Shown in pieces: positions 4,079 to 55,992 of a stretch of DNA of 64,000 nt (position 1 is its first letter; the number at the start of each line of letters is the position of its first letter). This DNA comes from a virus (taxonomy: Duplodnaviria > Heunggongvirae > Uroviricota > Caudoviricetes): the IMG/VR virus record IMGVR_UViG_3300031555_004162, positions 14,478-78,477 of that record. One strand, written 5' to 3'. Below the pieces are notes generated by a model that saw nothing but the letters and a program-made list of their open reading frames with translations, had not been told where the DNA came from and made no database searches. The position numbers and the translations under genes are program-made.

Positions 4079-4190
4079 TTTAAATCCCTCATCAATATAA
4101 TTAAACTTATTTCTATTTAACATTAAATACAGCCAATATAAATTCTATTTAATTATATTTTATTTATCTTAAAATGCATATTTGAAAATT

Positions 4191-31601: not shown

Positions 31602-32855
31602 TCACTCCGATGACTTAAAATTATATACAGGCTTAATAAGCTTTATAATCTCTACTGTATCTTCAATATTATTTACAATATCATTAATATTCTTATATGC
31701 TTGAGGAGATTCATCGAGAGTACCTTCATTAATACATGTAGAATAAATACCTGTCATAGATTCTGCAAAATCAGAAAGACTAATAGTTTCTTTAGCTTTA
31801 CCTCTACTCATTAATCTACCAGCACCATGAGGAGCTGAATTATTGTAATCCTCGTTTCCTTTACCTTTACAAATAAGAACTCCATCTCTCATATTAATAG
31901 GAATAACTAACATTTGTCCTTCATAAGCAGCGACCGCACCTTTTCTAATTATGTTATCATCTCCAATATAATTATGAATCGTATCAAACCATTCGGTCTT
32001 AATATTATATTTCCCTTTTTGTTTAATTCTTAACTTTCCACTAGTAGATAATTGAACTTGACAATCATTGAAATAATTCTTTATAAGTTCTTCAGCGATT
32101 GTAAATCTATTCAGTGCAGCGTATTTCTGACAAATTCTCATATCATGTAAATATTTATCTTTATCTTCACCAATAAGATAAAGTAAATTTTTAGGAATCT
32201 TATCTAACTTTGACTTATAATTATTTATGGCTTCTTGAATATCAGATTCCCTTCCAGATGCTTTCATTTCTGCTATTAAGGAATTTATATTATTCTTATC
32301 TTCTTCCTTTCCAGCTTTATTTTGATAATACTTACATACGTCTAATCCTAAATGTCTAGAACCAGTATGAATCATAAGATATTTGTTTCCTTCAAAATCT
32401 TCATCAATTTCACAAAAATGATTCCCCGAACCAAGCGAGCCGATAGCTCTTAATACTTTATCATATTGATGTTTTACCACATCTTTATAACAATACATAT
32501 TTTCAAGTTCGTCAAATTTCTTTTTCTGTTTTGAATTAACTTCAAATCCGAAAGCAACATTTTCACGAAGTATTTTATCAAATCTCTTATAATCTATATC
32601 AACATTTCCTAATGGAATTGTTAGTACACCACAACCAATATCGACTCCAACTAAATTAGGAACTACTTTATCTCCTAAATTAGCTGTAAATCCTATAACA
32701 CATCCTGCTCCAGCGTGACAATCAGGTTGAATTCTTATTTTACAACCTTCAACAAAAGGCTGATTTAATAATTGTATTATCTGACATATACACTCATCTT
32801 CTATAACATCTGTAAATACTTTAGCAGTACCATATTTTCCTTTAAGTTCTAACAT
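31602..32855 (-). CDS. rtcB: RNA-splicing ligase RtcB
   Basis: Motifs GVDIGCGV, CHAGAGC, GSGNHFCEIDED and APHGAGR. Start trimmed to MLELKGKYGTAKVF behind GGAGGAATAAA. Confidence 0.8.
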   Translation of the reverse strand: MLELKGKYGTAKVFTDVIEDECICQIIQLLNQPFVEGCKIRIQPDCHAGAGCVIGFTANLGDKVVPNLVGVDIGCGVLTIPLGNVDIDYKRFDKILRENVAFGFEVNSKQKKKFDELENMYCYKDVVKHQYDKVLRAIGSLGSGNHFCEIDEDFEGNKYLMIHTGSRHLGLDVCKYYQNKAGKEEDKNNINSLIAEMKASGRESDIQEAINNYKSKLDKIPKNLLYLIGEDKDKYLHDMRICQKYAALNRFTIAEELIKNYFNDCQVQLSTSGKLRIKQKGKYNIKTEWFDTIHNYIGDDNIIRKGAVAAYEGQMLVIPINMRDGVLICKGKGNEDYNNSAPHGAGRLMSRGKAKETISLSDFAESMTGIYSTCINEGTLDESPQAYKNINDIVNNIEDTVEIIKLIKPVYNFKSSE

Positions 32856-32856
32856 T

Positions 32857-33099
32857 TTATTCCTCCACTTTTGTAGGTTTATAAAGAGTAGCATCTTCAA
32901 GTTCTTCTAAATCGTAAATAATGCTATTAAGTTTATCTATTACAAGTTCATTAACTTTAAATCCATTTTTATCAATAATACGTTTATCATAACTTATATG
33001 ATGAATAGCTTCATCTATTCGGCTATATGCTTCTTTTATTAACCCTTTATATTTTTTATTTTCATTTTCATCTCTTGGAGTTATTTCATAAGCTTTCAT
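32857..33099 (-). CDS. hypothetical protein
   Basis: Start trimmed to MKAYEITP, which has GAGAGGA upstream. Confidence 0.4.
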   Translation of the reverse strand: MKAYEITPRDENENKKYKGLIKEAYSRIDEAIHHISYDKRIIDKNGFKVNELVIDKLNSIIYDLEELEDATLYKPTKVEE

Positions 33100-35143: not shown

Positions 35144-35467
35144 TATTAATAATATTTAAACTATACACTATATTTTTAATAACTTATCATATAAACAAAA
35201 CAAACAAATAACTAAAAATCTAATTTATACTCATTTTTACTCGGCACAATACATTTACATTCACTTCATAATAAACTTTAAAGAGGTAATCTATATCAAA
35301 TAGTTTAAATATTATGATTATATTTTATTATTAATTTTATCTATTAATAACTGTTTACAAATATTTAATGCAATCACCCATTCAGAATTTATATATTCAT
35401 CCGATTCAATATAATCATTTATTAATCTTATAATTTCTTGATAAGTCATTTCATATCACATCTTTCA

Positions 35468-35989
35468 TCATAATTGAGGTAACATTTCCAATAATTCTTC
35501 AATCTTATTTTTAGTATTATCAGATAATATCATTTTATCTTTATTATTATCATACCAATGCTTTGCAGTACTTTTAGGATTATTATATTTAAATGATGAC
35601 CAATCACATAACATTTCTATAATACAATTTAAAGGCATATCTAATATTTTTTGTTCACCTGAATCTTTTTGTAAAATCCAATATTGCCAATGATGATCAT
35701 TACATTTTTGATGATGGTTCCAAGCTTCATCATATAATGCTTCATTATCGGCACCTGCTTTAGATGGATAAAAATGATGCAAATATGGATAAAATTCTAC
35801 ATCATCATACTTAGATGCATCATGATTATTTATTTTATGTTCTAATTCATGCTCATTAAAATCAAACATTGTTAAAAGATCATCTTTTATAGATTCATAA
35901 GATTTCTTAACGCCATCTATATGATTTTCTAAATATTTATAATATTCTTCAGATCTATCAGATACTCTTTCAGTTAATATTTTCAACAT
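35468..35989 (-). CDS. His/Trp-motif protein, paralog A (WNHH...HHWQYW...MP...CDW)
   Basis: Shares the HHWxYWI...G...L.MP...I.EM.CDW block with 39007..39549. Confidence 0.5.
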   Translation of the reverse strand: MLKILTERVSDRSEEYYKYLENHIDGVKKSYESIKDDLLTMFDFNEHELEHKINNHDASKYDDVEFYPYLHHFYPSKAGADNEALYDEAWNHHQKCNDHHWQYWILQKDSGEQKILDMPLNCIIEMLCDWSSFKYNNPKSTAKHWYDNNKDKMILSDNTKNKIEELLEMLPQL

Positions 35990-36050
35990 TTATTTTCTCC
36001 TTTAAAAAATAAACATGAGACATTTTAATCATGTCTCATGTTTAATAAAA

Positions 36051-36326
36051 TTATTCATTTATAAGTTTTCTTACAGTAGGTGAAAATCTAAATTTAGGAT
36101 TTTTCTTAGCAGGACTTACTTTTTCTTCACCTGTTTTTGGGTTTCTTACTACTCTTTCAGGTTGATCTATTGCTTCAAATTTTCCAAAACTATAAATTTC
36201 TACCTTTTCACCATTCTTTAAATTTTCATTTACTAATTGTACAAATGTATCAATAACCCCTGTAACAGTGTTAATTGATTCTCCTGTAGATATTGCAATC
36301 TTTTCGATTAATTCTTGTTTTTTCAT
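36051..36326 (-). CDS. hup: HU/IHF-family DNA-binding protein
   Basis: Start trimmed to MKKQELIEK behind AAAGGAGAA. GEKVEIYSFGKFEA...RNPKTGEEK...F matches the HU arm and signature. Confidence 0.75.
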   Translation of the reverse strand: MKKQELIEKIAISTGESINTVTGVIDTFVQLVNENLKNGEKVEIYSFGKFEAIDQPERVVRNPKTGEEKVSPAKKNPKFRFSPTVRKLINE

Positions 36327-36352
36327 AATATTTCTCCTTTTATTTAATAATA

Positions 36353-36655
36353 TCACTGCTTATTATATTCATCTAATGCTTTATAAATAGCAGTTTCAAA
36401 CTTAACACGTGTATCAGCTGTAATAGGATGATATATATCAAAAAATCCAGAAACCGGATTATTTTTTTCATCCAATGCAGTGATTTTTTGTGATGGAAAT
36501 GCAATAAACTTTTTCTTATTTCCATTTTCTATTTTTTCAATAACCCTAATATTATGCAAAACCATTTCATTGTCTATTAATACTGAAACTAATGCTTTAA
36601 CAGGTTTAGTAGGATCATTATAAACTTTTTTTACTTGAACGCTTGTAATTATCAT
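36353..36655 (-). CDS. spoVG: SpoVG-like protein
   Basis: KALVSVLIDNEMVLHNIRVIE...FIAFPSQK....DIYHPITADTR aligns along its length with the SpoVG consensus (KA.ASIT.D..FV.HD.RVI....FVAMPS.......DIAHPI). Confidence 0.8.
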   Translation of the reverse strand: MIITSVQVKKVYNDPTKPVKALVSVLIDNEMVLHNIRVIEKIENGNKKKFIAFPSQKITALDEKNNPVSGFFDIYHPITADTRVKFETAIYKALDEYNKQ

Positions 36656-36718
36656 GTCTTTTTATCTCCTTAATTATTTTTATATTTATATTTTATTATT
36701 TTAAATGTAAAAACGTAT

Positions 36719-37375
36719 TTAATAAATTAATTCATTAATAGGAGTGTTATATTTACATATTTTCCAATTTGAACAAAATTTAGAATTATAATTACGTTTT
36801 AAACATAATATAGCTGCTTCATTTTCAGTGCAATTAACATTATATACTTCATTATAAAAGTCTATATTATTAATATTACTAATACTTATTTTATATGAAT
36901 TATTTGAATTTTTAGTCTTATTAGCAAATCCTATATGAGTTCTATTAGTAGATATATAATAAAAAGTCCAATAATCTTTATATTTAGTAGTCGGATATAA
37001 TAGTTCCCATATATATGAACTAAATTTATTTATTTTATTAGAAATTTTAGCATTATATTCATTAAGTTTAGTATCTATTTCATTATTATTTACGATATTT
37101 TGCTGCATAAAATAATTATCATTAATATTTAAACTAATAAATCTCATATCTTTACTTATTTTTAAAATATAATACAATTTACCATTTCTAAAATTACAAT
37201 TAAAATATTTGTTTATTTTTCTTAAATCCGATATATTCATTAATCTATAAAATAATATGTTAATACAATCTTCTTTCTCTTCTATAATCATATTTCGTAC
37301 ATTATCTATTTTTGTATTTAAACTTATACCAATTAATATTTTTAAATATTTTAAATTGTTTGCACTTATATTCAT
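36719..37375 (-). CDS. Asn-rich hypothetical protein
   Basis: 218-aa low-complexity N/I/K-rich ORF. Confidence 0.4.
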   Translation of the reverse strand: MNISANNLKYLKILIGISLNTKIDNVRNMIIEEKEDCINILFYRLMNISDLRKINKYFNCNFRNGKLYYILKISKDMRFISLNINDNYFMQQNIVNNNEIDTKLNEYNAKISNKINKFSSYIWELLYPTTKYKDYWTFYYISTNRTHIGFANKTKNSNNSYKISISNINNIDFYNEVYNVNCTENEAAILCLKRNYNSKFCSNWKICKYNTPINELIY

Positions 37376-37427
37376 AATAATTCTCCTCTAATGCTTATTT
37401 AATGTAATTTGGAATTATATAGTATAT

Positions 37428-38588
37428 TTAAATTAATTTATCTACATGTTGAAATTCATCTAATGTAAATTCATAAACTTTATTTTGAGTATGATTTTGA
37501 AATACAACATCTTTATCACTTATTATATTATAATCGTTTGTAAATGTGTTCATTATTTCTTTAGAAATCCATTCTATAAATTTAACCGGAACACCTTGAG
37601 CTAAACATTGAATTGTAGGAATTTTACATTCATTAGGATAAAATATAAAATCATCCGGATAGCCCATTATTCTAGCATATTCTCTTATATATAAATCTCT
37701 ATTTTCTACAGGATGAATAAATTGAGCTAAACTAGTCATTGAAGGAGCCACTCCGTCAAAATCAAGTCTATATGAAGATTTATCCCATAATCTTTCTCCA
37801 TTATTTTTCTTTTCAATAAAAGATTTTACTTGTTTTTTATGTTCATTCGGAATTTTTTCAATGTCTAGATTATTTAAATTGTTGTATAATCCACACATTA
37901 AAGATTCATTATGTTTTACATATCTATAAAATTCTTCCATATTTTTAATAGCTCTGTTATTATCAAATTCCATATTGGGTGTGTCAGGAGTTAAACCTTC
38001 AAATATTTCTTTTATTGTTGTTTTATTTTGTTTAACAAATTTTATTTCAGGTATTTTTTCATATTTATTTTTATTCCAACCTACAATCATAGTTCTTAAT
38101 CTTCTCATACTTACACCATGATTTCCAGCCATATCTCGTATGATTGTAAATTTATACTTTTCACCTAATATATTCACCATATCTTTTAAAATAGGTAATC
38201 CTAAAGTCACGACTGTTGGTGCATTTTCTATTAAAAATGTATCAGGATTTAAATGATTTATAATATCAAATACTTCATAAAATCTATTATTTACTTTATT
38301 ATCTACTTTTGCATTTTTATTTATAGAACTTAATCCAGAGCATGGATTATTTGAATATAATAAGTTATAATGTTTTTCTTTTAAAGTGTCTAAGAATGCA
38401 TTTTGAGACCACTCTGATGGTCTCTTAATATTTATATTAGGATAATTCTTACAAAAATGATACGCATTAGTATCTGTCATATCTTCAGTCATTTCTAAAA
38501 CAGTATCTATTTTCCATCCTGTATTTAAATGTCCTATGGTCTGACTCCCAGAAAATATATATGCACCTATAGCTGATAATTCATTCAT
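37428..38588 (-). CDS. DNA cytosine-5 methyltransferase-like protein
   Basis: Motif I-like YIFSGSQTIG, motif IV-like NPCSGLS (PCQ.FS), motif VI-like LIENAPTVV (ENV) and motif VIII-like SMRRLRT. Confidence 0.5.
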   Translation of the reverse strand: MNELSAIGAYIFSGSQTIGHLNTGWKIDTVLEMTEDMTDTNAYHFCKNYPNINIKRPSEWSQNAFLDTLKEKHYNLLYSNNPCSGLSSINKNAKVDNKVNNRFYEVFDIINHLNPDTFLIENAPTVVTLGLPILKDMVNILGEKYKFTIIRDMAGNHGVSMRRLRTMIVGWNKNKYEKIPEIKFVKQNKTTIKEIFEGLTPDTPNMEFDNNRAIKNMEEFYRYVKHNESLMCGLYNNLNNLDIEKIPNEHKKQVKSFIEKKNNGERLWDKSSYRLDFDGVAPSMTSLAQFIHPVENRDLYIREYARIMGYPDDFIFYPNECKIPTIQCLAQGVPVKFIEWISKEIMNTFTNDYNIISDKDVVFQNHTQNKVYEFTLDEFQHVDKLI

Positions 38589-38612
38589 ATTTTATATTAC
38601 TCCTTTTTAATT

Positions 38613-38987
38613 TCAATCTAACTCTATTCTACCTATAAGATTTGGATGAATAATCATTTCCTTCATATAAGGAGTTAGATCGTAAAAATCATCTTCTCTT
38701 AATTTTTTAAATGGACTACACTCCATGCCTGCAAATAAAAATACACAAATTTCACTGTTATTATCACCTATAGGTTTTAATTTAATATCAGGCTTATTAG
38801 ATCTACATGTAAAAATTAATCTATATTTTCTAAACCATTTGGTCATAAATTTAGGACCTTTAATAGTCATAAGATGTTTAATATTATTCTCTTTAGCAGT
38901 CCAATCACAAGTATGTATTATGTAATCTTCATATATTTTTATTTCGTGTCCATTTGCACCCATGTGAGTATTTATTATTTTATCCAT
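38613..38987 (-). CDS. hypothetical protein
   Basis: 124-aa ORF. Confidence 0.45.
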   Translation of the reverse strand: MDKIINTHMGANGHEIKIYEDYIIHTCDWTAKENNIKHLMTIKGPKFMTKWFRKYRLIFTCRSNKPDIKLKPIGDNNSEICVFLFAGMECSPFKKLREDDFYDLTPYMKEMIIHPNLIGRIELD

Positions 38988-39006
38988 GTTTTCTCCTTAG
39001 TTAATT

Positions 39007-39549
39007 TCATTTTTCATATGTTTTTTCATATTTTTTAATAATATCTTTTAACTTAAATCTACCAGAGCTATAATCATGTAATACATTAAATAAAAATGTA
39101 TAAGTATCTAAATGTATTTTTATTTTACCACTATTGTATAATCTATTAAAAGTTTTAAAAGGAATATCACAGGTCCAATTATCTTTATTATATGCTTTTC
39201 CAGCTCCTATCCAATCACATATCATTTCTTTAACATATTTAATTGGCATTTTTAATGCTTCTCCACCTGAAGAAAGATTATCAATCCAATATTCCCAATG
39301 ATGTGGATTTCTTCCTCTATGATGTAACCATGCGTATGAATATCCTTTTTCATCTTTTTCATTATCAATTGGACTTCTATCACCTGTATAATATTTAGCA
39401 GAATTAAAAAATTCAGAAAAACTAAATTTAGACCAATCATGCATAAATCCTCTAAAAGGAATTCCAGCTTCAACAGATGCTAAAAACACATAATATTTAT
39501 GTCTGTTTATTATAGCAAAATGTTTTAATAATTTTTTATAATATTTCAT
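39007..39549 (-). CDS. His/Trp-motif protein, paralog B (LHH...HHWEYW...MP...CDW)
   Basis: Shares the conserved block with 35468..35989. Confidence 0.5.
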   Translation of the reverse strand: MKYYKKLLKHFAIINRHKYYVFLASVEAGIPFRGFMHDWSKFSFSEFFNSAKYYTGDRSPIDNEKDEKGYSYAWLHHRGRNPHHWEYWIDNLSSGGEALKMPIKYVKEMICDWIGAGKAYNKDNWTCDIPFKTFNRLYNSGKIKIHLDTYTFLFNVLHDYSSGRFKLKDIIKKYEKTYEK

Positions 39550-40061
39550 TTAGTTCTCCCATTTAACTCATTCATCTTATTTTTAGCATTGTCTATATCA
39601 AAAAATATTCTTAATCCCATTGATCTTGATAATCTATATGCAGTTTTAATATATGAATTTTTTGTCTGCAACATAACTTTCCAACCTAAACTCGATCTAT
39701 AGTAAATTTTATCTATGTAAGCTTCTTCAATTGTGTATTTACCATTTTTAATTTTCTTAATAACGAATACTGTAAGTCTTTTATTTTGAATATCTATCAA
39801 ATGTGGAATCGTTAAATAAGCAATTGTATTGTCATAATTATTTATTCTATCAAGTTTTCTTAAATAATCTAAAGGACCCATACAATTATCCCATAGTAGA
39901 TCCGAGTAATAATGTTTCTTTTTTAATGATTTTTTAAAAGTATTAACTTCTAATTCATTCTTACATTTTTCTATGTACACTTCTGCAGATATTCCATTCA
40001 CCATGTCTAATGCATACATCTTTGCTTCTTTTTTAATTTTCTTTAAATTTGTTAAGTTCAT
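39546..40061 (-). CDS. hypothetical protein
   Basis: 171-aa ORF. Confidence 0.45.
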   Translation of the reverse strand: MNLTNLKKIKKEAKMYALDMVNGISAEVYIEKCKNELEVNTFKKSLKKKHYYSDLLWDNCMGPLDYLRKLDRINNYDNTIAYLTIPHLIDIQNKRLTVFVIKKIKNGKYTIEEAYIDKIYYRSSLGWKVMLQTKNSYIKTAYRLSRSMGLRIFFDIDNAKNKMNELNGRTK

Positions 40062-40162
40062 AATTTATTTCTCCTTTATATTAAATTTTTATAAATAAAC
40101 TTCCTATTATTTATAATAGTACACGTATTAAAATATTATTTTTATTAAAAAAACTCCAAATT

Positions 40163-40423
40163 TTATTTGGAGTTTTTTAGTATTAAATATTTGTGTTTAG
40201 TTGCCATGCCACCACGAATATGTTTATCTTTAAAATTTGATGCAACTAATTTTCTAACTTTTTGATATAATCTTTTATCAATGTATGGTAATTTATAAAG
40301 AAAATCGTATGACAATGTAGATTTACCAATTCCAAACACTTTAGCAGTTTTTCGTATTGTAGATTTATTATCTACGTAATAAATTGCACAAGCTTTTATT
40401 CTATTCTCAAGTTGTTCGTTCAT
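40163..40423 (-). CDS. SpoIIID-like HTH transcriptional regulator
   Basis: Start trimmed to MNEQLEN (GGAG RBS). RIKACAIYYVDNKSTIRKTAKVFGIGKSTLSYDF...LP.I...L...V......KHIRGGMATKHKY parallels B. subtilis SpoIIID (ERTIKIGKYIVETKKTVRVIAKEFGVSKSTVHKDL...RHLRGGEATKLKY). Confidence 0.7.
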   Translation of the reverse strand: MNEQLENRIKACAIYYVDNKSTIRKTAKVFGIGKSTLSYDFLYKLPYIDKRLYQKVRKLVASNFKDKHIRGGMATKHKYLILKNSK

Positions 40424-40472
40424 ATAAATCAACTCCTTTAATTATATTTTATTAAAGGAATCAATAAATATA

Positions 40473-41513
40473 TTATTCTTCATCGTCTTCAAATTTTGGA
40501 TTTTCTAATAATAAATTATCCACTTTTAATTTTATACTATTAAACAATTCAATATCATTATTTAAAGCATCTAACACCTTAGCTTGTCCTTGCCATTTAT
40601 ATTCTTTTTCATTTACTTTTGCATCAAACCACGCTCCACCTTTATGAATCACTCCGAATTTAAGAGCTAAATCTAATAAATCTATATCTGTTCTTATTCC
40701 ATTTCTGTAAAATAAAGAGCATTTAGATATTCTTCTATCTGAAGGACATGTTTTTGATTTTACCAATTTTACTTCTATTAAATGACCTTGAGGATTTTCA
40801 GATGAACTTGAAATTTCATTGCCTTTTTCATCAAGAAATTTTCCTTTACGAGTCATATAACGTTGAGAACATGCAAACTTCCAAGCTCTACCTCCAGGAG
40901 TAGTGATAGGATTGTACATATTACCTATATTTTCTCTAACTTGATTTATTCCTATAAAACAAATATTATTCCTCTTTATAATAGGTGTGCACTGGTTTAC
41001 AAATTGTGTTAATGGTAATGCTATTCCACCATATGTTTTATCTTCAAATGATTTTTCAGAAGCTTGTTTAGAAAACATTGCTCCTATAGAATCTAAAATC
41101 ATTAATCCGAAAGCTTCAGTTTCCATAGCTGCTTTTACTTGATCGAATATTTCTTCAGCGTATTGTCCTATACAATTTAATATAATAACTTTACTAGAAT
41201 CAACGCCCATATGAGAAGCCCATTTTGCATCATAAGTGCCTTCAACATCTATATATAAAATATATTCGTCCGGCCACAATTTTTGAAAATTAGCCATAAT
41301 ATCTAAACACAAGGTTGATTTTCCAGATGATTCTTCACCATAAAATTCTATAATTCTTCCTCTTGGAACACCACCATAACTCATATAGTTTAATCTTAAA
41401 CTGGAAAACGGAATTAAATCTAATTCTTTTTCTTCCATACCTAATTGTACAATTTCAGAACCATATTGTTTATTTACTTTTTTCATCCAATCCATTAAAT
41501 TTGTATTAGTCAT
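40473..41513 (-). CDS. recA: RecA-family recombinase
   Basis: GVPRGRIIEFYGEESSGKSTLCLD (Walker A), Walker B ILDSIGAMF, overall RecA layout; 346 aa. Confidence 0.85.
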   Translation of the reverse strand: MTNTNLMDWMKKVNKQYGSEIVQLGMEEKELDLIPFSSLRLNYMSYGGVPRGRIIEFYGEESSGKSTLCLDIMANFQKLWPDEYILYIDVEGTYDAKWASHMGVDSSKVIILNCIGQYAEEIFDQVKAAMETEAFGLMILDSIGAMFSKQASEKSFEDKTYGGIALPLTQFVNQCTPIIKRNNICFIGINQVRENIGNMYNPITTPGGRAWKFACSQRYMTRKGKFLDEKGNEISSSSENPQGHLIEVKLVKSKTCPSDRRISKCSLFYRNGIRTDIDLLDLALKFGVIHKGGAWFDAKVNEKEYKWQGQAKVLDALNNDIELFNSIKLKVDNLLLENPKFEDDEE

Positions 41514-43509: not shown

Positions 43510-44511
43510 TTACTTATTGAATTTAATAGCATTTTCATTAAATAAAGTATTATCACATTCCACAAAATAGTCAAATAGTGGTAACGCTAACTCTCTCATT
43601 TGAGGATGAGCAGCTTTGTCACATCTTAATTCAAAGAAATGTCCCCATTCATAATTATGAGCAGTCATTATAATTTCAGTTTTTAAACTGTTACCAAGTA
43701 CACTTCTAGCTTCTTGAGGAGTAGCTCCTAATTCTAATAACTCAAAGTATGCTTTTTCTGAAGCTTTTATTGCATCTCTCCAAACATGATACTTGTTTCT
43801 TTCAACACTTTGAAGTTCTGCTTCACCATCAAACATTAATGGGTCAATCACCGTGATATTATTATCAAATTTATCTTTAGAATAATTACAATATCTTGTA
43901 GATTCTTGAGCATATGAAGAATCCCTATGTCTAACGATTTCATGTGATACACCTCTATCACAAATAAATTTAATAGATTTCCATCCGTGCATCCATTGTT
44001 CTTCTGGAATTAATGTATTAATATCATCGATTTTAGTCCAATTATTTCTATGTACTTTTTTAAATTTATTACCAAATAATTCATCACAATCATAATCTAA
44101 GACTATTTGCTCACATAATTCAATTAAATGTTCTTTCATATAACTATTAGTCTTATAAGCTTCTAATAAATCTAAAAGAGACCTTGCGCTAAACGACAAT
44201 ATATATCTTAATTTTGTTTCAAAATTACCTTCATCATTACATGAAATAATTTCTGTCGTACTAGATGTTATATATTTTTCATTACTTAATATTTTAAAAA
44301 ATAAATTATTAGGAGTATTACATTGATATACAAATATAAAATGTTCTAACATCGCCCAATGTTTTTTATCATATAAATTTTTAATCATTTTTTTATGACT
44401 TTCATCAGTTATTAAATCTTCTGATTTATAACAAATTCTTGCAATTTTTTCAATATGTTTTTGAGGATTGTCATCATACATTTCTTTAAATGACGGCTTT
44501 ATAATTTTCAT
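43510..44511 (-). CDS. thyX: flavin-dependent thymidylate synthase ThyX
   Basis: ThyX signature RHR-x7-S present as RHRDSSYAQES; longer than typical ThyX (333 aa). Confidence 0.75.
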   Translation of the reverse strand: MKIIKPSFKEMYDDNPQKHIEKIARICYKSEDLITDESHKKMIKNLYDKKHWAMLEHFIFVYQCNTPNNLFFKILSNEKYITSSTTEIISCNDEGNFETKLRYILSFSARSLLDLLEAYKTNSYMKEHLIELCEQIVLDYDCDELFGNKFKKVHRNNWTKIDDINTLIPEEQWMHGWKSIKFICDRGVSHEIVRHRDSSYAQESTRYCNYSKDKFDNNITVIDPLMFDGEAELQSVERNKYHVWRDAIKASEKAYFELLELGATPQEARSVLGNSLKTEIIMTAHNYEWGHFFELRCDKAAHPQMRELALPLFDYFVECDNTLFNENAIKFNK

Positions 44512-47562: not shown

Positions 47563-50160
47563 TTAATTTATTTTATCGATTTTGTATATATAATTATGTT
47601 TAATTTCTTTATAAATATATTTCTCTATAATCGGATATATATATGTTTGAATATATAATAAATACAATAATTTGTAAAGTTTTTCATCACATGCATGTTC
47701 ACTATAATATCTAAATTTTGAATTTCTCATTTCATCAATAAATATATCTTTAATTTCATCATATCTTGTATGAGCAGTCTCAAAATTATTTATTACAAAA
47801 CATGTAGTTTCAATAAATGTTAAAAACCAATTTTCATTTTTAAAATCTTTATCATCAATATAAAATTCACCGTTATTCCACACATTGTGTTTTTTAGCAT
47901 ATGTCTTTATTTCATCTACAATATATCCTAATTTTTTAATATCTAAAGCTTCTCGTTCATTTATTTCTTCAATTGATGTATCACTATCAAATGATTCTTC
48001 ATAAAAAGATTTATCAACTTCATCATATGTTAATTCAGGATGAGTTACTAAATCACTTAATTTTGCAAATGTTCTTTTTGTAGATGGTCCACATACACAT
48101 CTGATATGAGTGGCATAATATAAGTCAATGTTTAATTTATTAGGCTTTATTTTATCATAATTGTCATTAAATAAATTAGATAGTTTTAAATACTCACCGG
48201 CCATTAAATATTTAGCGAACTGTTTAGCTCGTCTGTCAGTAAAATTTCTAACATTATTAATTATTTTCCAATGTGAAATAAGTTCTTTCCAATTATATTT
48301 AGAAATATCATCTACATACTGTGTAATTAATTGTTCTTCATAAAATTCTCTATCTGTTAAAAACTTATAAGCAATTTTAAAATATTTAATTAAATAACTA
48401 TAATCTAATGATGAATAATATCCAGTTGTGCTATCTCTTGAAGAACCAAATTGACCAATCTTTTTAGTATCTATAAAATACTTCATCCATATAGAATTCA
48501 TATATTCAAGATTAATAAATTCAGAAGTCTCTACTTCAAAATTAGCCTTATTTTTTCTTTCATTCCACCAATCGTCTTTTTTAACAGCTATAAAAATTCT
48601 ATCATTTTCAATAAGATTAATTTTATAAAGTCCAGAAGATACTTTACAATCTCTTGTAGTATTCAATTCTCCTCGAGCTCTATTGGCACTATATGTCTTA
48701 CCATTACTTTCTCGAATAGATTGAATAACTAAAATAGTATCTCCAACATGATTATATTCATTTATATTTTCTACAAAGTCGGCAAAATTTCCATATCTAT
48801 TATCATCTAACCAAGCATTTGCATAATTATGAATAATATATTTAGATGTAAATCTAATATCTACTTTTTCAGGTACAGTAAGTATTTCTCTATGTTCAAT
48901 TAGTCCTTGAACTACACTTAAAGCAAAATATCTCGAAACGGCTTCACCAATAGGAGTGTTAGGAGTTTTATCATTTTCATCTATTTGTTTTACTTCAGGT
49001 TTATATATTACATCTTCTATGAAAGATAATTTATGCTCATCCATATCAGTTTTGTCATTATCCCATTCTTCTTCAAGCCAACCCACATATAAATTTTCAC
49101 CATTTCTAACAACAAATCCAATTTTATTTCCATGCAACATATCGTATGACTCTAAAATATCATCATCACTGTTGTAAAAATAATTTTTATTTGTTTTAGA
49201 ACATCTAAAAAATGATATACATTTTAGTTGAGGACAAAACATTTCCATAACGGAATCCGAATATTTAAGTACTTCTTCTAAAAGTTTATAATTGCCTTCA
49301 ATATCATCAGTATATATACTCATGGTTTTAGCTAAATCTTCATTAAGATATAACATTTTTTGATTAAGCACTATAGGTGTTTCTTCTGATTCTTTTTTAC
49401 CTTCTCTTAATTGAATTAATTCTACAGTTTCACCTGCAAAACATCTAATAGAATAAATGTTTGTTTTCAACATAAAGATTTGCTGTTTTAATGCTTTTAA
49501 TTTTTCATTAAATTCAGCCATCTTTTCATCAAGTTCAGCTATCATTGCTTGTTTCTTAGCCTCAAGTAAATTCATCTTTTCATCTATTTCTTTTTGAATT
49601 TTGGCTAATTCATCAGTTTTAGCATTTTTTACATTTTCTATTTGTGATTTTAAATTATCCATTAATGTTGTTACTTTCTTTTGCTCACTTTTAACATCAT
49701 TAATAGATAAATTTGTAATTTCAGCCGGTAGTTTACTTTCGGTTGCAGGAGTATTTCCATTTATTAACATTCTCTTTACTTCATTTAATGAATACTGAGA
49801 ATAATCTGTTTCAGGTATAAATTCAACAAAATCTTCAAGAATAAATATAGATACTTTACCATAAGATACTACTACATATTTATCAATATGCATATCTACG
49901 TTCCATGTAAAATTATTTAATTTAATATATGCATCTACAGTTTTAGCATTATCATATCTTAATATATTAACTCCATCTGGTTTAGAATTACAATACTGTT
50001 TATTTAATATATTATCAATTGCTTTTGAAATAACTTGAGTATCTTTTTCATTCCATTTACCATAAAAATATTGCATATATTCATCGTTAAATTTTACAAC
50101 ATCAAAATTTTCAGATTGAATATACTCCAAATATTCATTAAGTTTGATATTAGATTTCAT
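47563..50160 (-). CDS. large hypothetical protein (865 aa) with central coiled coil
   Basis: Long uninterrupted ORF; residues ~150-250 are heptad-like K/E/L-rich; no catalytic motif recognised. Confidence 0.6.
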   Translation of the reverse strand: MKSNIKLNEYLEYIQSENFDVVKFNDEYMQYFYGKWNEKDTQVISKAIDNILNKQYCNSKPDGVNILRYDNAKTVDAYIKLNNFTWNVDMHIDKYVVVSYGKVSIFILEDFVEFIPETDYSQYSLNEVKRMLINGNTPATESKLPAEITNLSINDVKSEQKKVTTLMDNLKSQIENVKNAKTDELAKIQKEIDEKMNLLEAKKQAMIAELDEKMAEFNEKLKALKQQIFMLKTNIYSIRCFAGETVELIQLREGKKESEETPIVLNQKMLYLNEDLAKTMSIYTDDIEGNYKLLEEVLKYSDSVMEMFCPQLKCISFFRCSKTNKNYFYNSDDDILESYDMLHGNKIGFVVRNGENLYVGWLEEEWDNDKTDMDEHKLSFIEDVIYKPEVKQIDENDKTPNTPIGEAVSRYFALSVVQGLIEHREILTVPEKVDIRFTSKYIIHNYANAWLDDNRYGNFADFVENINEYNHVGDTILVIQSIRESNGKTYSANRARGELNTTRDCKVSSGLYKINLIENDRIFIAVKKDDWWNERKNKANFEVETSEFINLEYMNSIWMKYFIDTKKIGQFGSSRDSTTGYYSSLDYSYLIKYFKIAYKFLTDREFYEEQLITQYVDDISKYNWKELISHWKIINNVRNFTDRRAKQFAKYLMAGEYLKLSNLFNDNYDKIKPNKLNIDLYYATHIRCVCGPSTKRTFAKLSDLVTHPELTYDEVDKSFYEESFDSDTSIEEINEREALDIKKLGYIVDEIKTYAKKHNVWNNGEFYIDDKDFKNENWFLTFIETTCFVINNFETAHTRYDEIKDIFIDEMRNSKFRYYSEHACDEKLYKLLYLLYIQTYIYPIIEKYIYKEIKHNYIYKIDKIN

Positions 50161-51538: not shown

Positions 51539-53116
51539 TTATTCATCAATATTATCTTCAAGATATGGATTTACTACTTCAGGAAGAGATTCCTTTTCAT
51601 CATTATTAATAACTGTATTATTTTCAGATGTACTTAATACACCTAAACCTTTAAGAGGTTCTGCAACTGCTTTAACGGCCTCTGAAACTGAATCATTAAA
51701 TGATTTACCATTAAGAGCATTATTAGAAACATCTAAATGTTTCATAAGAGTAGGAATTTGTGCAAGAGTATCAAATAATACATTGTTGCCCATACCTGTT
51801 CCTGAACCACCAATGTTTACAAATTCTGCATTCTTTCCAACTTCAGCCATTACAGTAGCCATATTTGTTGCAATCTGTACTCTTGCTTCATTTTCAATCT
51901 TAATTTTTTCAATTTCAAAATTAACCTTACCATTTCCTGCTCTTGCTTCAGCTAATGCTTTTTCACCTTCAGCTTCGGCAAGTTTTTTCGCTTTAATTGC
52001 TTCAGCTTCTGCAATACCTTGTTTAGTAGTAATTTCAGCTTGAGTTTCACCTTCAAGTTTTATTTTATTTGCATTAGCTTGAGCTTCTCTTTCAATTGCA
52101 TTTGCTTTACCAATAGCTTCTTGCTCTAATACTTTAGCTCTTGCTTCTGCATTAATAGTGGAAACGTTTGCTGTTTCTTGAGCTTTAATTTCCGCTTGAA
52201 CTTTTTCAGCTTCAGCTCTAGTTTTAATAACTTCCTTTTCTTTAATTGCGGCTAGATTAGCTTGTTCTTGTCTGACAACTTCAACTTTACCTTCTTGTGC
52301 AGCAACTTCTTGCATACGAATAGTTTTCTGAAGTTCACCTGCAATTGCAGCGTCTGCATTGGCTTTATCTGTTTCCGCTTTGAATTCGGCAATTTTTAAA
52401 TTATTATTTTTAGTTTTTTCAGCAATTTCAAGTTCTGTATCAAGTTCACTTTGTTTAGCTATTTTTTCTGATTCTGCATTTTGTTGTCTGATTTGCTGAT
52501 CAGCCATAGCTCTTACTTGTTCAGCTTCTTTTCTCTTTTCTTCTCTATCTTTAGCAGCAATATCTTCATAATAACCATTGTTATCTGTAACTTCACCTAT
52601 ATTAAGTGAGATTAATTTAAGACCCATATCTTTAAGTTCATCTGCAACAGCTTCTTGCACCGTTTGTTTAAACTGTTCTTTTTTAGTAGCTACTTCTTCT
52701 GGAGTCATAGTTGCAACAGTGCCAAGTACACATCCAGCCAATGTTCTTTTAACATCTTCTTTAATACCATCACTTTTACGTTCTTTAAAAGATACTATTG
52801 CTTTAGCAAGAACTTCAGTATCAGATGAATCAGGTCTAATTTGAGCAGTCCAATTAATAACGATAGGTACACCTGTCTTTGTCATAATTTCATCTTTATC
52901 AGCTGTAACAGTTAACATACATAAATCGAATGTATCTGCTCTTCTAAAAATAGGAATTACAAGTCCACCTCCAGAAACTTTATAGATAGGCTCTTTTCCG
53001 CCTGTTATTATTAATACTTTATCTACAGGCACTGTTTTATATATTTTACAAAGTAAAATAATAAAAGCCACAATAAATAAAATTATTACCCCACCGATTA
53101 TTAAATATTTTTCCAT
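51539..53116 (-). CDS. flotillin-like SPFH/band-7 protein
   Basis: N-terminal TM helix, an SPFH-like core (PIVINWTAQIRPD...), then long Ala/Glu-rich heptad repeats (AEAEA, EAEQ) typical of FloT/YqiK flotillins. Confidence 0.65.
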   Translation of the reverse strand: MEKYLIIGGVIILFIVAFIILLCKIYKTVPVDKVLIITGGKEPIYKVSGGGLVIPIFRRADTFDLCMLTVTADKDEIMTKTGVPIVINWTAQIRPDSSDTEVLAKAIVSFKERKSDGIKEDVKRTLAGCVLGTVATMTPEEVATKKEQFKQTVQEAVADELKDMGLKLISLNIGEVTDNNGYYEDIAAKDREEKRKEAEQVRAMADQQIRQQNAESEKIAKQSELDTELEIAEKTKNNNLKIAEFKAETDKANADAAIAGELQKTIRMQEVAAQEGKVEVVRQEQANLAAIKEKEVIKTRAEAEKVQAEIKAQETANVSTINAEARAKVLEQEAIGKANAIEREAQANANKIKLEGETQAEITTKQGIAEAEAIKAKKLAEAEGEKALAEARAGNGKVNFEIEKIKIENEARVQIATNMATVMAEVGKNAEFVNIGGSGTGMGNNVLFDTLAQIPTLMKHLDVSNNALNGKSFNDSVSEAVKAVAEPLKGLGVLSTSENNTVINNDEKESLPEVVNPYLEDNIDE

Positions 53117-54897: not shown

Positions 54898-55133
54898 ATA
54901 AATTGTAAGTGGATAACAGTTAGAGTCTTCAAGGTTTTAAGCCTTGAGCTATTGAGCATTAGCCGTATTTTTAACAAAGACTCATGTATAATGAATATTA
55001 TGTGAAAGAATAAGTATAGCAAAGTAAAAACCATAACTTATTTTAATACAAAAAATGGTTGTATGTTAAAACCACACAATGTTTATTTAGAAAGGAATGC
55101 AAAATAATGTATTTAAATCACATAATATTCATT

Positions 55134-55260
55134 TGGTCGGAATTAAGAGATTCGAACTCTTCTTAATAAATTAATTGTCAAATACAAAATTTTTAAAGGG
55201 GAAGTTTCATTTAGTATATTTTAATTTATTAAGTGTATAACCACTTTATACCTAATTCCG
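55134..55260 (-). ncRNA. aberrant tRNA-like RNA (127 nt). The acceptor, D and T arms are intact. In place of an anticodon arm there is a 13-bp stem with a ~46-nt loop
   Basis: 5' CGGAATT pairs perfectly with AATTCCG before A-CCA. D-arm is GTAT-AAAGTGGTT-ATAC, T-arm AAGAG-TTCGAAT-CTCTT. The central stem is CTTAATAAATTAA paired with TTAATTTATTAAG. Confidence 0.35.
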
Positions 55261-55427
55261 AAATACCGTGTTTTATAAATGTTAAGTACTATGCATTCAT
55301 ATTTTTATTTAAAGTATAAAAACATACACGGTGATGAAAAACTCCATTTTTTAAAGTAAAAAATATGTAAAACTCAGTTTATTCTATACTTGTAAAAGAT
55401 TTTCTTTGCGCAACCCGAAAACAGGTT

Positions 55428-55516
55428 TGGTGCAAGAGAAGGGATTCGAACCCTCAATTCCTCACGGACGACGGATTTTAAGTCCGTTGCATATACCAAA
55501 ATTCTGCCACTCTTGC
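55428..55516 (-). tRNA. tRNA-Leu (anticodon UAA), type II with long variable arm
   Basis: Acceptor GCAAGAG/CTCTTGC, anticodon loop CTTAAAA, T-loop GTTCGAATC, 3' ACCA encoded. Confidence 0.85.
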
Positions 55517-55689
55517 ATGTAAATCATAAGAATCACCCACTAATTATTAAATAATAACCACTACATTTATATTTAATAATTGCCCACTATCTTACATTAA
55601 ATCTCTAAAGATTCTACCCGTATGCTTTATTAATTAAAAAAGTTGAACAGAAAAAATGAAACAAAGCTATTCATATTACTATGAATATT

Positions 55690-55763
55690 TGGCTGGGGTA
55701 AATGGAATCGAACCAATACTCTAAGAATCAAAATCTTATGTACTACCGTTATACTATACCCCA
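55690..55763 (-). tRNA. tRNA-Gln (anticodon UUG)
   Basis: Acceptor TGGGGTA/TACCCCA, U8, D-arm GTAT/GTAC, anticodon stem TAAGA/TCTTA with loop TTTTGAT, T-loop TTCGATT, 3' GCCA; 74 nt. Confidence 0.85.
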
Positions 55764-55776
55764 ATATATTAAATAT

Positions 55777-55897
55777 TAAAGGTTGAAAATATATTAAATA
55801 ATTAAGAAAAGAGGATTTACCAGGAACTCAATTCTGGTAAAAAGGTAAATGTTATACTTTCGGAAAATTATTCGAAATGAATATTTTCAACCTTTAA
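55777..55897 (-). ncRNA. inverted-repeat-bounded structured element (possible sRNA)
   Basis: Perfect 16-bp arms taaaggttgaaaatat / atattttcaaccttta enclose about 88 nt that contain an internal taccag/ctggta hairpin; no ORF. Confidence 0.3.
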
Positions 55898-55992
55898 TAA
55901 TTTAAACTAAGTTTAATTTATTCCATCTTATATTTATTATAATAGTTTAACTCTAAAGTTATTATTTATTTTTATGATTTTTTTACGATTTT

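What the first reader, a model, noticed from the sequence alone, without database searches (positions are those of the whole stretch)
36051..40432. Phage-encoded sporulation/nucleoid regulators: SpoVG homolog, HU homolog and SpoIIID-like regulator
The 100-aa ORF 36353..36655 aligns along its full length with SpoVG. The adjacent ORF is an HU/IHF-type protein. ORF 40163..40423, directly after recA, matches the mother-cell regulator SpoIIID closely across its HTH and C-terminal RGG.ATK.KY block. SpoVG and SpoIIID are global developmental regulators of endospore-forming Firmicutes. Carrying host-like copies implies the phage reprograms host transcription or sporulation commitment, a strategy already documented for phage-encoded sporulation sigma factors. 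It also points to an endospore-forming host.
Basis: partly seen in the sequence, partly recalled or inferred. Interest (0 to 1): 0.7.

Follow-up and report, generated by a model that had tools for sequence, protein, structure and literature searches.

The report
Phage SpoVG–HU operon plus SpoIIID-like regulator
A large, very AT-rich phage-like genome from gut metagenomes really does encode divergent copies of the bacterial DNA/RNA-binding proteins SpoVG, HU and SpoIIID, but phage copies of such "sporulation" regulators are already documented, and here they look like the phage's own conserved, co-regulated nucleic-acid-binding toolkit, not recent host copies.

Summary
Three real genes pass Pfam gathering thresholds: SpoVG (36353-36655), HU/IHF (true start ATG 36326, 91 aa) and SpoIIID (40163-40423, just after recA). 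All fall far below NCBIfam equivalog cutoffs and are only about 34-45% identical to bacterial proteins, so they are not host-like copies. The replicon is an uncultured jumbo-phage-like element (24% GC, relatives 160-260 kb). It is found only in metagenomes, some of them human gut, and I saw no capsid or terminase gene. SpoVG-HU is a two-gene unit with a strong terminator, adjacent in every relative. SpoVG is nearly as conserved as RecA and forms a small subfamily with two conserved insertions and an altered DNA-binding doublet (K-R to Q-K). SpoIIID evolves faster, moves position, and has a changed recognition helix. One AT-rich promoter-like motif precedes both units in every gene arrangement seen (degenerate before SpoIIID in L003/L005). 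Phage-carried spoIIID, spoVG and spo0A were reported by Schwartz et al. 2023, and PHROGs has a SpoIIID family. SpoVG is not sporulation-specific. The host is unresolved: SpoIIID, Spo0A_C and YodL in the clade suggest a spore-former, but the only taxon label is a binned Ca. Onthovivens MAG contig. Verdict: a real new member of a known kind, with moderate interest.

The parts
36353..36655 (-). spoVG homolog (100 aa), a phage-type subfamily with two insertions
   Evidence: PF04026 2.8e-18; PDB 2i9x/2i9z/2ia9; model pLDDT 83 and Foldseek hits to SpoVG only; AAGGAG RBS 8 nt before the ATG at 36655; 69-74% identity across the clade; 37 invariant columns.
36051..36326 (-). HU/IHF-type DNA-bending protein (91 aa), second gene of the unit
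   Evidence: PF00216 2.5e-24, phrog_379; homology starts at residue 11 of the long ORF; AAAGGAG RBS before the ATG at 36326; R58, R61, N62, P63 conserved; adjacent to spoVG in every relative.
36010..36044 (-). intrinsic terminator after HU
   Evidence: 14-bp stem plus T-run; deltaG -18.7 kcal/mol, z -7.1, 0 of 200 shuffles as stable; a 19-bp hairpin at the same place in L008.
36680..36695 (-). conserved promoter-like motif TAAAATATAAATATAA upstream of spoVG
   Evidence: Block invariant in L003, L005, L007, L008, L011 and L012 while the flanking intergenic DNA is unalignable; 6 window hits at <=1 mismatch against 1.22 expected; L008 reads TTGTGA-16-TATAAT.
40163..40423 (-). spoIIID-family HTH regulator (86 aa)
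   Evidence: PF12116 7.3e-23, phrog_11726 3.6e-23; PDB 2l0k 6e-11; RBS and ATG at 40423; database gene call of 86 aa; 45-55% identity in the clade, position variable.
40436..40451 (-). copy of the same motif (TAAAATATAATTAAAG) directly upstream of the spoIIID RBS
   Evidence: Core TAAAATATAAT exact; exact 16-mer at the equivalent site in L012 and L014, 1 mismatch in L011, degenerate in L003/L005, and 1 mismatch before Tad6-spoIIID in L008.
40148..40178 (-). terminator hairpin spanning the spoIIID stop codon, followed by a U-run
   Evidence: deltaG -13.6 kcal/mol, z -7.1, 0 of 200 shuffles as stable; sequence.
40473..41513 (-). recA/UvsX-like recombinase, immediately upstream of spoIIID (context)
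   Evidence: PF00154 8.5e-43, phrog_97 5e-75; 72-85% identity in the clade; nearest cultured relatives are Clostridium sporogenes phages at 40%.
37428..38588 (-). C5 cytosine DNA methyltransferase within the syntenic block (context)
   Evidence: PF00145 3e-26; syntenic in all relatives.
36719..37375 (-). syntenic fast-evolving ORF (218 aa) between dcm and spoVG, function unknown (context)
   Evidence: No Pfam or PHROG hit; 26-28% identity at the same position in relatives.
35468..35989 (-). DUF5662 paralog a, downstream of HU (context)
   Evidence: PF18907 1.6e-31.
39007..39549 (-). DUF5662 paralog b, between spoIIID and dcm (context)
   Evidence: PF18907 3.7e-35; 68-71% identity in the clade.

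Best explanation
These are three functional genes of an uncultured, jumbo-phage-like replicon: 24% GC, source contig 114.6 kb, relatives 160-260 kb, known only from metagenomes (at least one a human gut sample). They encode lineage-adapted nucleic-acid-binding proteins that most likely serve the phage's own infection programme. SpoVG and HU form a bicistronic unit with separate ribosome-binding sites, a 26-nt gap, a conserved upstream promoter-like motif and a strong intrinsic terminator. That unit belongs to the clade's conserved replication/recombination/DNA-modification block (shown). I infer that HU bends or compacts DNA through its intact beta-arm. I also infer that the SpoVG variant binds DNA or RNA with a clade-conserved specificity and so modulates phage, and possibly host, gene expression. 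The SpoIIID-like protein keeps both DNA-binding elements of SpoIIID (the HTH and the C-terminal basic segment) but has a different recognition helix. I infer that it is a small monomeric transcription regulator whose target sites differ from the canonical host SpoIIID box. Because the same motif precedes both units, the three proteins are probably made at the same stage of infection. Any effect on host sporulation is possible but secondary and unproven.
For: Family membership and fold. Operon anatomy: RBSs, terminators. SpoVG-HU adjacency in every relative, including the most divergent, L007. SpoVG identity of 69-74% compares with RecA 72-85%, Dcm 47-54% and ThyX 41-64%, and its insertions are conserved. 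This is a distinct small subfamily: 3 representative clusters at E<=1e-30 plus one intermediate, out of 769 SpoVG-like representatives among 1.84 billion. S. aureus K50/R51 are essential for DNA binding and S66-E71 set specificity (PMC3688583). The phage has an invariant Q56-K57, and the A80-K85 segment is largely conserved within the clade. The SpoIIID recognition helix differs from the canonical one and varies within the clade, while the scaffold residues are invariant. Its nearest non-clade relative sits in another mobile-element-like context, whereas a canonical-helix homolog is chromosomal. The shared upstream motif is documented. Host SpoVG is required for full phage late-promoter activity in non-sporulating S. 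aureus (PMC13123087). Phage-like context: UvsX-like PHROG, YopX, Tad6 in relatives, tRNAs, and 132 co-oriented genes at 91% coding.
Against: No biochemical or expression data exist, and the targets of all three proteins are unknown. The motif lies only about 5 nt from the Shine-Dalgarno in the SpoIIID, Tad6 and g1464 instances, which is odd for a -10 element. It is AT-rich in an AT-rich genome, and the enrichment is modest (1 to 3 of 100 shuffles reach the observed count). Before SpoIIID the motif has 2 mismatches in the window and is degenerate in L003/L005. Relatives also carry receiver-less Spo0A_C and YodL, which fits the sporulation-manipulation idea. No capsid, portal or terminase gene was seen in about 86 kb examined, so 'phage' is inferred.
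Confidence: 0.5

Rival explanations
1. One reading: the phage uses SpoIIID and SpoVG homologs (with Spo0A_C in relatives) to reprogram sporulation of an endospore-forming host. SpoIIID would act on mother-cell sigma-E/sigma-K genes, and SpoVG on septation or Spo0A.
For: SpoIIID belongs to the sporulation gene set conserved in spore-formers (PMC3533761). Phage spoIIID, spoVG and spo0A homologs are enriched in phages of spore-formers (PMC10294663). Relatives carry Spo0A_C (4e-11) and YodL (1e-14). SpoIIID homologs occur in Clostridium and Bacillus phages. RecA is nearest to Clostridium phage recombinases.
Against: The proteins are divergent rather than host-like. The SpoIIID recognition helix is changed and variable. 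The SpoVG basic doublet is altered. SpoVG is not sporulation-specific. SpoVG is fixed in an operon with HU and conserved like a core gene, which is unusual for a host-manipulation moron. The host is unknown, and the only taxon label is Ca. Onthovivens from a binned contig.
Confidence: 0.3
2. HU, possibly together with SpoVG, is a TF1-like architectural protein specialised for chemically modified phage DNA. It would package or mark the phage genome or help it replicate, with no regulatory role.
For: The unit is embedded among DNA-modification and nucleotide-metabolism genes: Dcm two genes upstream of spoVG, plus ThyX, dCMP deaminase, dUTPase and a TET-associated glycosyltransferase. Phage HU homologs are a known PHROG (phrog_379). 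SPO1 TF1 is a weak PDB hit (1exe, 3e-4). That TF1 prefers hydroxymethyluracil DNA is from my own knowledge.
Against: There is no evidence that the DNA is modified. No TET/JBP enzyme was detected at E<=1e-4. The HU is no closer to TF1 than to ordinary HU/IHF. This model does not explain SpoIIID or the shared motif.
Confidence: 0.12
3. The element is not a phage. It would be a megaplasmid, another extrachromosomal element, or a fragment of a small low-GC bacterial genome (for example the Ca. Onthovivens MAG), in which case these are ordinary cellular regulators.
For: No capsid, portal or terminase gene was found in the window or in L016/L024. The clade is absent from the IMG/VR collection scanned. 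One member is deposited in a bacterial MAG.
Against: Not one of the genes scanned with Pfam (the 122-ORF bulk scan plus the 10 module genes) gave a ribosomal or other housekeeping family; 132 co-oriented short ORFs, mostly without any family. Phage-type families are present: UvsX-like, YopX, Tad6, UvrB phrog_27849 at 2e-215, and a D5-like helicase. The MAG contig consists entirely of this module. No similar SpoVG occurs on known plasmids. None was found in GTDB representative genomes. The same gene order recurs on 160-260 kb contigs from many samples.
Confidence: 0.06

Closest known systems
Phage-carried sporulation-gene homologs in human-gut phages (Schwartz et al. 2023, mBio, PMC10294663)
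   Same: Gut phage sequences carrying spoIIID (K06283), spoVG (K06412) and receiver-less spo0A, all three of which occur in this clade. That paper proposes the same hypothesis, manipulation of dormancy.
   Different: That survey works at KO level and does not describe gene context. Here SpoVG is a distinct insertion-bearing subfamily fixed in an operon with HU on jumbo-sized contigs and shares an upstream motif with the SpoIIID unit. The host here is not established.
SpoIIID-like genes of Clostridium phages phi3626 and vB_CpeS-CP51 and Bacillus phage vB_BceM-HSE3 (PHROG 11726)
   Same: Small proteins of about 85-90 aa in the SpoIIID family carried by phages of Bacillota. PHROG match 3.6e-23, with 36-41% identity by tblastn.
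   Different: phi3626 and CP51 are 33-39 kb phages of known spore-formers (HSE3 is 124 kb). This copy is on a much larger uncultured element, follows recA, and has a non-canonical recognition helix.
Bacterial SpoVG (B. subtilis, S. aureus, Listeria, Borrelia): site-specific DNA- and RNA-binding regulator
   Same: Same fold (TM 0.6-0.8), with the conserved H-P-I motif and the C-terminal helix that sets specificity.
   Different: 42-45% identity in the alignment (30-35% to crystallised SpoVGs by Foldseek). Three insertions (+2, +4 basic, +8-9 hairpin). The K-R doublet becomes Q-K. The gene is not in the yabJ-spoVG-glmU context and is paired with HU instead.
B. subtilis SpoIIID (PDB 2l0k), mother-cell transcription factor
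   Same: HTH scaffold and the C-terminal H-x-RGG-x-ATK-x-KY basic region are conserved.
   Different: 34% identity. The recognition helix is SKSTVHKD in B. subtilis and GKSTLSYD here. It scores below the TIGR02844 equivalog cutoff and is encoded next to recA on a phage-like element.
Phage-encoded HU-family proteins (phrog_379; SPO1 TF1)
   Same: A type II DNA-binding protein encoded by a large phage of Bacillota. The beta-arm proline and arginines are retained.
   Different: It is not specifically related to TF1 (1exe E 3e-4, against 1e-12 to 1e-15 for HU/IHF). Obligate pairing with a SpoVG gene has not been described, as far as my searches show.

Membership tests
SpoVG (PF04026) | Profile match above the curated Pfam threshold over the full domain | tested here: met
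   66.2 bits against a gathering score of 29.6, profile positions 1-79 of 82.
SpoVG (PF04026) | SpoVG fold: beta-sheet followed by a C-terminal alpha-helix | tested here: met
   Model pLDDT 83. The only significant PDB hits are SpoVG entries 2i9z, 2ia9 and 2i9x, TM 0.6-0.8.
SpoVG (PF04026) | Conserved basic doublet essential for DNA binding (S. aureus K50-R51; Borrelia R53-R54) | tested here: not met
   The doublet aligns to the clade-invariant Q56-K57, so only the second basic residue is kept, and an 8-9 residue insertion follows. Extra basic residues (K47-K49) lie in the neighbouring insertion, so binding may be preserved by other means.
SpoVG equivalog (NF009749, septation regulator SpoVG) | Score above the NCBIfam equivalog cutoff | tested here: not met
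   59.7 bits against a cutoff of 108.
SpoVG (functional) | Binds DNA and/or RNA | not testable with these tools
   Requires EMSA or CLIP.
SpoIIID (PF12116 / TIGR02844) | Pfam profile match above threshold | tested here: met
   80.9 bits against 27, profile positions 3-79 of 82.
SpoIIID (PF12116 / TIGR02844) | Both DNA-binding elements present: the HTH and the C-terminal basic region (roles from my own knowledge of Himes 2010 and Chen 2014, papers not held here) | tested here: met
   T22, R24, A27, K34, S35 and H68, R70, G71, G72, K78 are invariant in the alignment with B. subtilis SpoIIID.
SpoIIID (PF12116 / TIGR02844) | Equivalog-level similarity and the canonical recognition helix (SKSTVHKD) | tested here: not met
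   73.5 bits against a cutoff of 111.5. The helix is GKSTLSYD and is variable in the clade.
SpoIIID (functional) | Sigma-E-dependent mother-cell expression and binding to the host SpoIIID consensus | not testable with these tools
   The host is unknown. No enriched regulator-site family was found in intergenic DNA apart from the Shine-Dalgarno and the TAAAATATAAT motif.
HU/IHF (PF00216) | Profile match and beta-arm residues, including the intercalating proline | tested here: met
   85.8 bits against 22.4, profile positions 1-90 of 90. R58, R61, N62 and P63 are present. No HU or IHF equivalog cutoff is reached, so the subtype is undetermined.
Tailed phage (Caudoviricetes) | Virion hallmark genes: major capsid, portal, large terminase | tested here: inconclusive
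   None was found in the 64-kb window or in about 22 kb beyond it. Large Ig-domain proteins and a mosaic 841-aa protein lie downstream, but the model gave no PDB match. The rest of the replicon could not be reached.
Phage-carried sporulation homologs of spore-former phages (Schwartz 2023) | Host is an endospore-forming Bacillota | tested here: inconclusive
   Spo0A_C and YodL in relatives and Clostridium-phage-like RecA favour it. The only taxon label is a binned contig of a Ca. Onthovivens MAG. No prophage copy was found in GTDB genomes.

The most novel reading that the evidence does not exclude
A clade of jumbo gut phages has domesticated a set of Bacillota developmental regulators: SpoVG, SpoIIID and, in some members, receiver-less Spo0A and YodL, alongside a phage sigma factor. 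It uses them as its own co-regulated programme. Within it, SpoVG-HU would be an obligate nucleic-acid-binding pair not described before, driven from a promoter class shared with SpoIIID. If the host really is a reduced, non-sporulating RFN20-type Bacillus relative such as Ca. Onthovivens, the phage would preserve 'sporulation' regulators in a lineage that has lost sporulation. That would show these folds acting independently of spore formation.
Probability: 0.2. Interest if true: 0.65.

Novelty: new member of a known kind. Interest (0 to 1): 0.38.

Why it matters
Phage-borne copies of sporulation regulators are a current hypothesis for how phages control dormancy of gut Firmicutes, yet there is almost no mechanistic data. 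This locus offers a clean, conserved test case: a compact SpoVG-HU operon and a SpoIIID-like factor, each preceded by the same promoter-like motif, in a widespread uncultured large-phage clade. It also carries two cautions for annotation-based surveys. SpoVG is not evidence of a sporulating host, and at least 2 of the 10 'phage' SpoVG hits in public phage collections are bacterial chromosome. If SpoVG-HU proves to be a phage chromatin or RNA-regulatory pair, it would extend the known repertoire of phage nucleoid-associated proteins.

Tried and rejected
1. Megablast of the region against 50,697 phage records found no match.
2. IMG/VR scans with SpoVG alone, with the SpoVG alignment and with RecA found no clade member, only a RecA at 39% identity.
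3. A GTDB genome scan with clade-specific SpoVG patterns found nothing, so there is no prophage or host link.
4. CGG-to-Trp recoding as a test of the Onthovivens link: there are only 7 CGG codons, only one was informative, and it aligns to Arg in relatives. The test is too weak to use.
5. The AATACGT motif seen near both units is not enriched, 7 observed against 5.4 expected.
6. An unbiased intergenic 9-mer search found only the Shine-Dalgarno.
7. The generic sigma-70 promoter scan is uninformative in this AT-rich DNA, 64 found against 63 expected.
8. Walking off the high-coordinate end of the window failed because three proteins were not on record.
9. Walking off the low end (L016, L024) found UvrB, a sigma factor and large Ig-domain proteins but no hallmark virion gene.
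10. The structure model of the 841-aa mosaic protein P0070 (pLDDT 71, pTM 0.26) gave no PDB match at E<1e-3.
11. Two of the ten SpoVG hits in the phage collection were inspected, and both turned out to be bacterial chromosome: glgC-glgD-spoVG and ispE-purR-yabJ-spoVG-glmU-prs.
12. Plasmid hits are all canonical bacterial SpoVG.
13. The SpoIIID structure papers were not available.
14. The Schwartz supplements held no per-gene host data.
15. The GTDB family of Onthovivens could not be confirmed from the held text.

Full report
OBSERVATION. The region lies in a 64-kb window of 24% GC. I called 132 short, tightly packed genes there, all on the minus strand, with 91% coding.

ORF 36353-36655 (100 aa) matches Pfam SpoVG with E 2.8e-18, 66 bits against a gathering score of 29.6, over essentially the whole domain. 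It matches the three crystallised SpoVG proteins by sequence. An AlphaFold model built from its family alignment (mean pLDDT 83) matches only SpoVG structures in the PDB, with TM 0.6-0.8.

The neighbouring ORF matches Bac_DNA_binding (HU/IHF) at 2.5e-24 and keeps the beta-arm residues R58, R61, N62 and P63.

ORF 40163-40423 (86 aa) matches Pfam SpoIIID at 7.3e-23 and the phage family phrog_11726, 'sporulation stage III protein D', at 3.6e-23. It aligns with B. subtilis SpoIIID (2l0k) across the HTH and the C-terminal H-x-RGG-x-ATK-x-KY block. A RecA/UvsX-like recombinase lies directly upstream.

There is one correction. HU starts at the ATG at 36326, which is preceded by AAAGGAG, not at the GTG at 36356. 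Homology to solved HU proteins begins at residue 11 of the long ORF, and relatives have 90-91 aa genes.

HOW HOST-LIKE ARE THEY? All three proteins score far below the NCBIfam equivalog cutoffs: SpoVG 59.7 against 108, SpoIIID 73.5 against 111.5, and HU/IHF models about 50 against 111-162. Alignment identities are 42-45% to two bacterial SpoVGs (30-35% to crystallised SpoVGs by Foldseek) and 34% to B. subtilis SpoIIID. They are divergent family members, not recent host copies.

THE REPLICON. No record in a 50,697-record phage collection resembles the DNA. The exact proteins occur on a 114.6-kb JGI contig. Their relatives lie on metagenomic contigs of 160-260 kb, for example from a Hadza gut sample, with the same gene order: ThyX ... 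RecA - SpoIIID ... DUF5662 ... Dcm - ORF - SpoVG - HU - DUF5662 ... RtcB.

The window carries nucleotide-metabolism, DNA-modification, recombination and RNA-repair genes: ThyX, dUTPase, dCMP deaminase, Dcm, a TET-associated glycosyltransferase, SbcCD, RtcB, a MazF-like domain and YopX. It also has two tRNAs. Relatives add the anti-Thoeris protein Tad6, a D5-like helicase and GroEL. Beyond the window start lie UvrB, a sigma-70-type factor and then a run of very large Ig-domain proteins.

I found no capsid, portal or terminase gene in the roughly 86 kb I could read. A structure model of one large mosaic protein matched nothing. 'Phage' is therefore a strong inference, not a demonstration. Known plasmids and GTDB representative genomes hold nothing similar.

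ANATOMY AND CONSERVATION. spoVG and hu each have their own ribosome-binding site and are 26 nt apart. They are followed by a 14-bp-stem hairpin and T-run (deltaG -18.7 kcal/mol, z -7.1). A comparable hairpin follows HU in L008. The pair is adjacent in every relative, including the most divergent.

Across the clade, SpoVG is 69-74% identical. That compares with RecA at 72-85%, and it is higher than ThyX (41-64%), Dcm (47-54%), HU (46-55%) and SpoIIID (45-55%). The family alignment has 37 invariant columns, and the clade-specific insertions are conserved as well.

An exhaustive HMM search of 1.84 billion representative proteins found 769 SpoVG-like sequences. Only three clusters scored E<=1e-30, with one intermediate, so this is a small and sharply bounded subfamily.

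Compared with bacterial SpoVG, the subfamily has three insertions: +2 residues, +4 basic residues, and an 8-9 residue hairpin extension. The K50-R51 doublet that Jutras et al. showed to be essential for DNA binding in S. aureus (PMC3688583) aligns to an invariant Q56-K57. The six-residue helix segment that sets sequence specificity (SDMRQE in S. aureus) is ADTRVK here and is largely conserved within the clade.

SpoIIID behaves differently. Its nearest non-identical relative among 5.8 billion proteins is 59% identical. It sits after RecA in some relatives and after HU-Tad6 in others, and it is missing from the 20 kb seen in L007. Its recognition helix is GKSTLSYD, where B. subtilis and the chromosomal-type homologs have SKSTVHKD, and relatives have SKSQLHTD or GKSSIHVN. 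The scaffold and the basic tail are invariant. A hairpin plus U-run spans its stop codon (deltaG -13.6 kcal/mol, z -7.1). Its closest non-clade relative lies in another mobile-element-like context, while a canonical-helix homolog is chromosomal.

A SHARED UPSTREAM MOTIF. The block (GAAT)TAAAATATAAyTATAA lies upstream of spoVG in every clade locus. It is invariant, although the surrounding intergenic DNA cannot be aligned.

The same motif lies directly upstream of spoIIID where that gene follows recA. It is exact in L012 and L014, has one mismatch in L011 and two in the window, and is degenerate in L003/L005. In L008 it appears with one mismatch just after the post-HU hairpin and upstream of Tad6-spoIIID.

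In the window the 16-mer at up to one mismatch occurs 6 times against 1.2 expected, and 1 of 100 shuffles reaches that count. The 11-nt core occurs 7 times against 2.6 expected, with 3 of 100 shuffles reaching it. Six of those seven core hits are on the coding strand, and four of the six are intergenic.

Upstream of spoVG the motif has sigma-A-like architecture, for example TTGTGA-16-TATAAT in L008. In the spoIIID, Tad6 and g1464 instances, however, the TATAAT is only about 5 nt from the Shine-Dalgarno. Its exact role, promoter or RNA-level element, is therefore open. Either way it links the two units and suggests co-regulation. This is the best support for treating the three genes as one functional set.

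WHAT IS KNOWN. Schwartz et al. 2023 (PMC10294663) reported 31 sporulation-gene homologs enriched in phages of spore-formers, including spoIIID, spoVG (described there as RNA-binding) and receiver-less spo0A. They proposed manipulation of dormancy. SpoIIID homologs are annotated in Clostridium phages phi3626 and CP51 and in Bacillus phage HSE3.

SpoVG is a different case. It matches no PHROG. The two 'phage' SpoVG records I inspected in the phage collection are bacterial chromosome.

SpoVG is not specific to spore-formers (PMC3533761). In non-sporulating S. aureus, host SpoVG is needed for full activity of a phage late promoter (PMC13123087). No paper I found combines jumbo phages with these regulators or describes a SpoVG-HU pair.

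HOST. Several points favour an endospore-former. SpoIIID belongs to the sporulation core set. Relatives carry Spo0A_C and YodL domains. RecA is nearest to Clostridium sporogenes phage recombinases at 40% identity. Relatives also have a peptidoglycan-related 3D-domain protein.

Against a firm call, the only organism name attached to any clade member is Candidatus Onthovivens sp., through a 17.6-kb MAG contig that consists entirely of this module and was therefore probably binned by composition and coverage. The uncultured order RFN20, to which I believe Onthovivens belongs (from my own recollection of GTDB, not confirmed here), contains families predicted to sporulate and families predicted not to (PMC10868615). 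A codon-reassignment test was too weak to help. The host remains unresolved.

MECHANISM. The following is shown: family membership and fold, operon anatomy, conservation pattern, altered functional residues, and the shared motif.

The following is inferred, at about 0.5 confidence. SpoVG-HU is a conserved phage nucleic-acid-binding pair acting within the replication, recombination and modification programme. SpoIIID-like is a small monomeric regulator with its own sequence specificity. All three are expressed together.

It is supported mainly by the clade's Spo0A_C and SpoIIID content. A TF1-like role on modified DNA (about 0.12) and a non-phage replicon (about 0.06) are less likely.

VERDICT. 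This is a new member of an already documented kind, with some features not described before: a distinct SpoVG subfamily, obligate pairing with HU, and a motif shared with SpoIIID. These give it moderate interest (0.38).

Noticed in passing
window 36680-36695, 40436-40451, 35312-35327, 4152-4162, 1821-1836 (all minus strand); L008 10749; L012 1413 and 5078: A small class of promoter-like motifs, TAAAATATAAT(nATAA), lies upstream of spoVG, spoIIID and three other genes. It is invariant upstream of spoVG across the clade. In several instances it is only about 5 nt from the Shine-Dalgarno, so it could act at DNA or RNA level.
   Followed up: partly
window 37428-38588 (Dcm), 57185-58465 (TAGT glycosyltransferase), 58482-59204 (dCMP deaminase), 56523-57065 (dUTPase), 43510-44511 (ThyX): This gene set suggests modified or hypermodified cytosine in the element's DNA (5mC, possibly oxidised and glycosylated). 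No TET/JBP enzyme was detected at E<=1e-4.
   Followed up: no
window 31602-32900 (RtcB); other ORFs not mapped: RNA-repair 'Swiss Army Knife' components are present: RtcB ligase plus Pfam HAD_SAK_2, cREC_REC and DUF488-N3a hits somewhere in the window. They may counter host tRNA or RNA nucleases. I could not assign the last three to ORFs.
   Followed up: partly
window 62188-63489: A 433-aa protein has an N-terminal MazF/PemK toxin domain (3e-20) and a long uncharacterised C-terminal extension.
   Followed up: no
window 51539-53116 and 47563-50160: A 525-aa SPFH/Band-7 domain protein, and an 865-aa protein with no family match. The only phage hit of the latter is a hypothetical protein of the 309-kb Tunturiibacter phage Tunturi_5 (24% identity over 19% of the query).
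   Followed up: no
window 55428-55516 and 55690-55763, inside a 958-nt intergenic gap (55035-55992): tRNA-Leu(UAA) and tRNA-Gln(UUG), both matching A/U-ending codons favoured by this 24% GC genome. These are the only Rfam hits in the window.
   Followed up: partly
window 35468-35989 and 39007-39549: Two DUF5662 paralogs flank the SpoVG-HU/Dcm block. Both are conserved in relatives (paralog b at 68-71%). Function unknown.
   Followed up: no
L008 13566-13958; L007 17758-18048; L007 6391-7086; L003 2552-4504; L008 10779-11090: Relatives carry a receiver-less Spo0A_C protein (4e-11), a YodL-like protein (1e-14), a GGDEF protein in the position after RecA, an intein-plus-HNH-interrupted ThyX, and the Thoeris inhibitor Tad6 (2.5e-23) next to HU.
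   Followed up: partly
L016 16657-17199 (= L024 7770-8312), about 6 kb beyond the window start: A 180-aa sigma-70 region-4 protein (phage sigma factor PHROGs) is followed by very large proteins of 841, 718, 1,720 and more than 1,212 aa, some with Big_2 Ig domains. This is probably a late or virion module. The 841-aa family (P0070) is mosaic, with a conserved N-terminus and variable C-termini.
   Followed up: partly
L019 (MT836006.1) and L020 (OR845007.1) in the public phage collection: These 'Bacteriophage sp.' and 'Staphylococcus phage SA 1306 Kay' records are bacterial chromosome fragments (glgC-glgD-spoVG, and ispE-purR-yabJ-spoVG-glmU-prs). SpoVG hits in phage databases can therefore be contamination.
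   Followed up: yes
L012 (GCA_034178405.1 contig JAXFRK010000158.1): A 17.6-kb contig of a Candidatus Onthovivens sp. MAG consists entirely of this phage-like module. Either it is a mis-binned phage fragment or it is a hint to the host. The SpoVG cluster member it encodes (P0049) was seen on 166 contigs, so the clade is widespread.
   Followed up: partly
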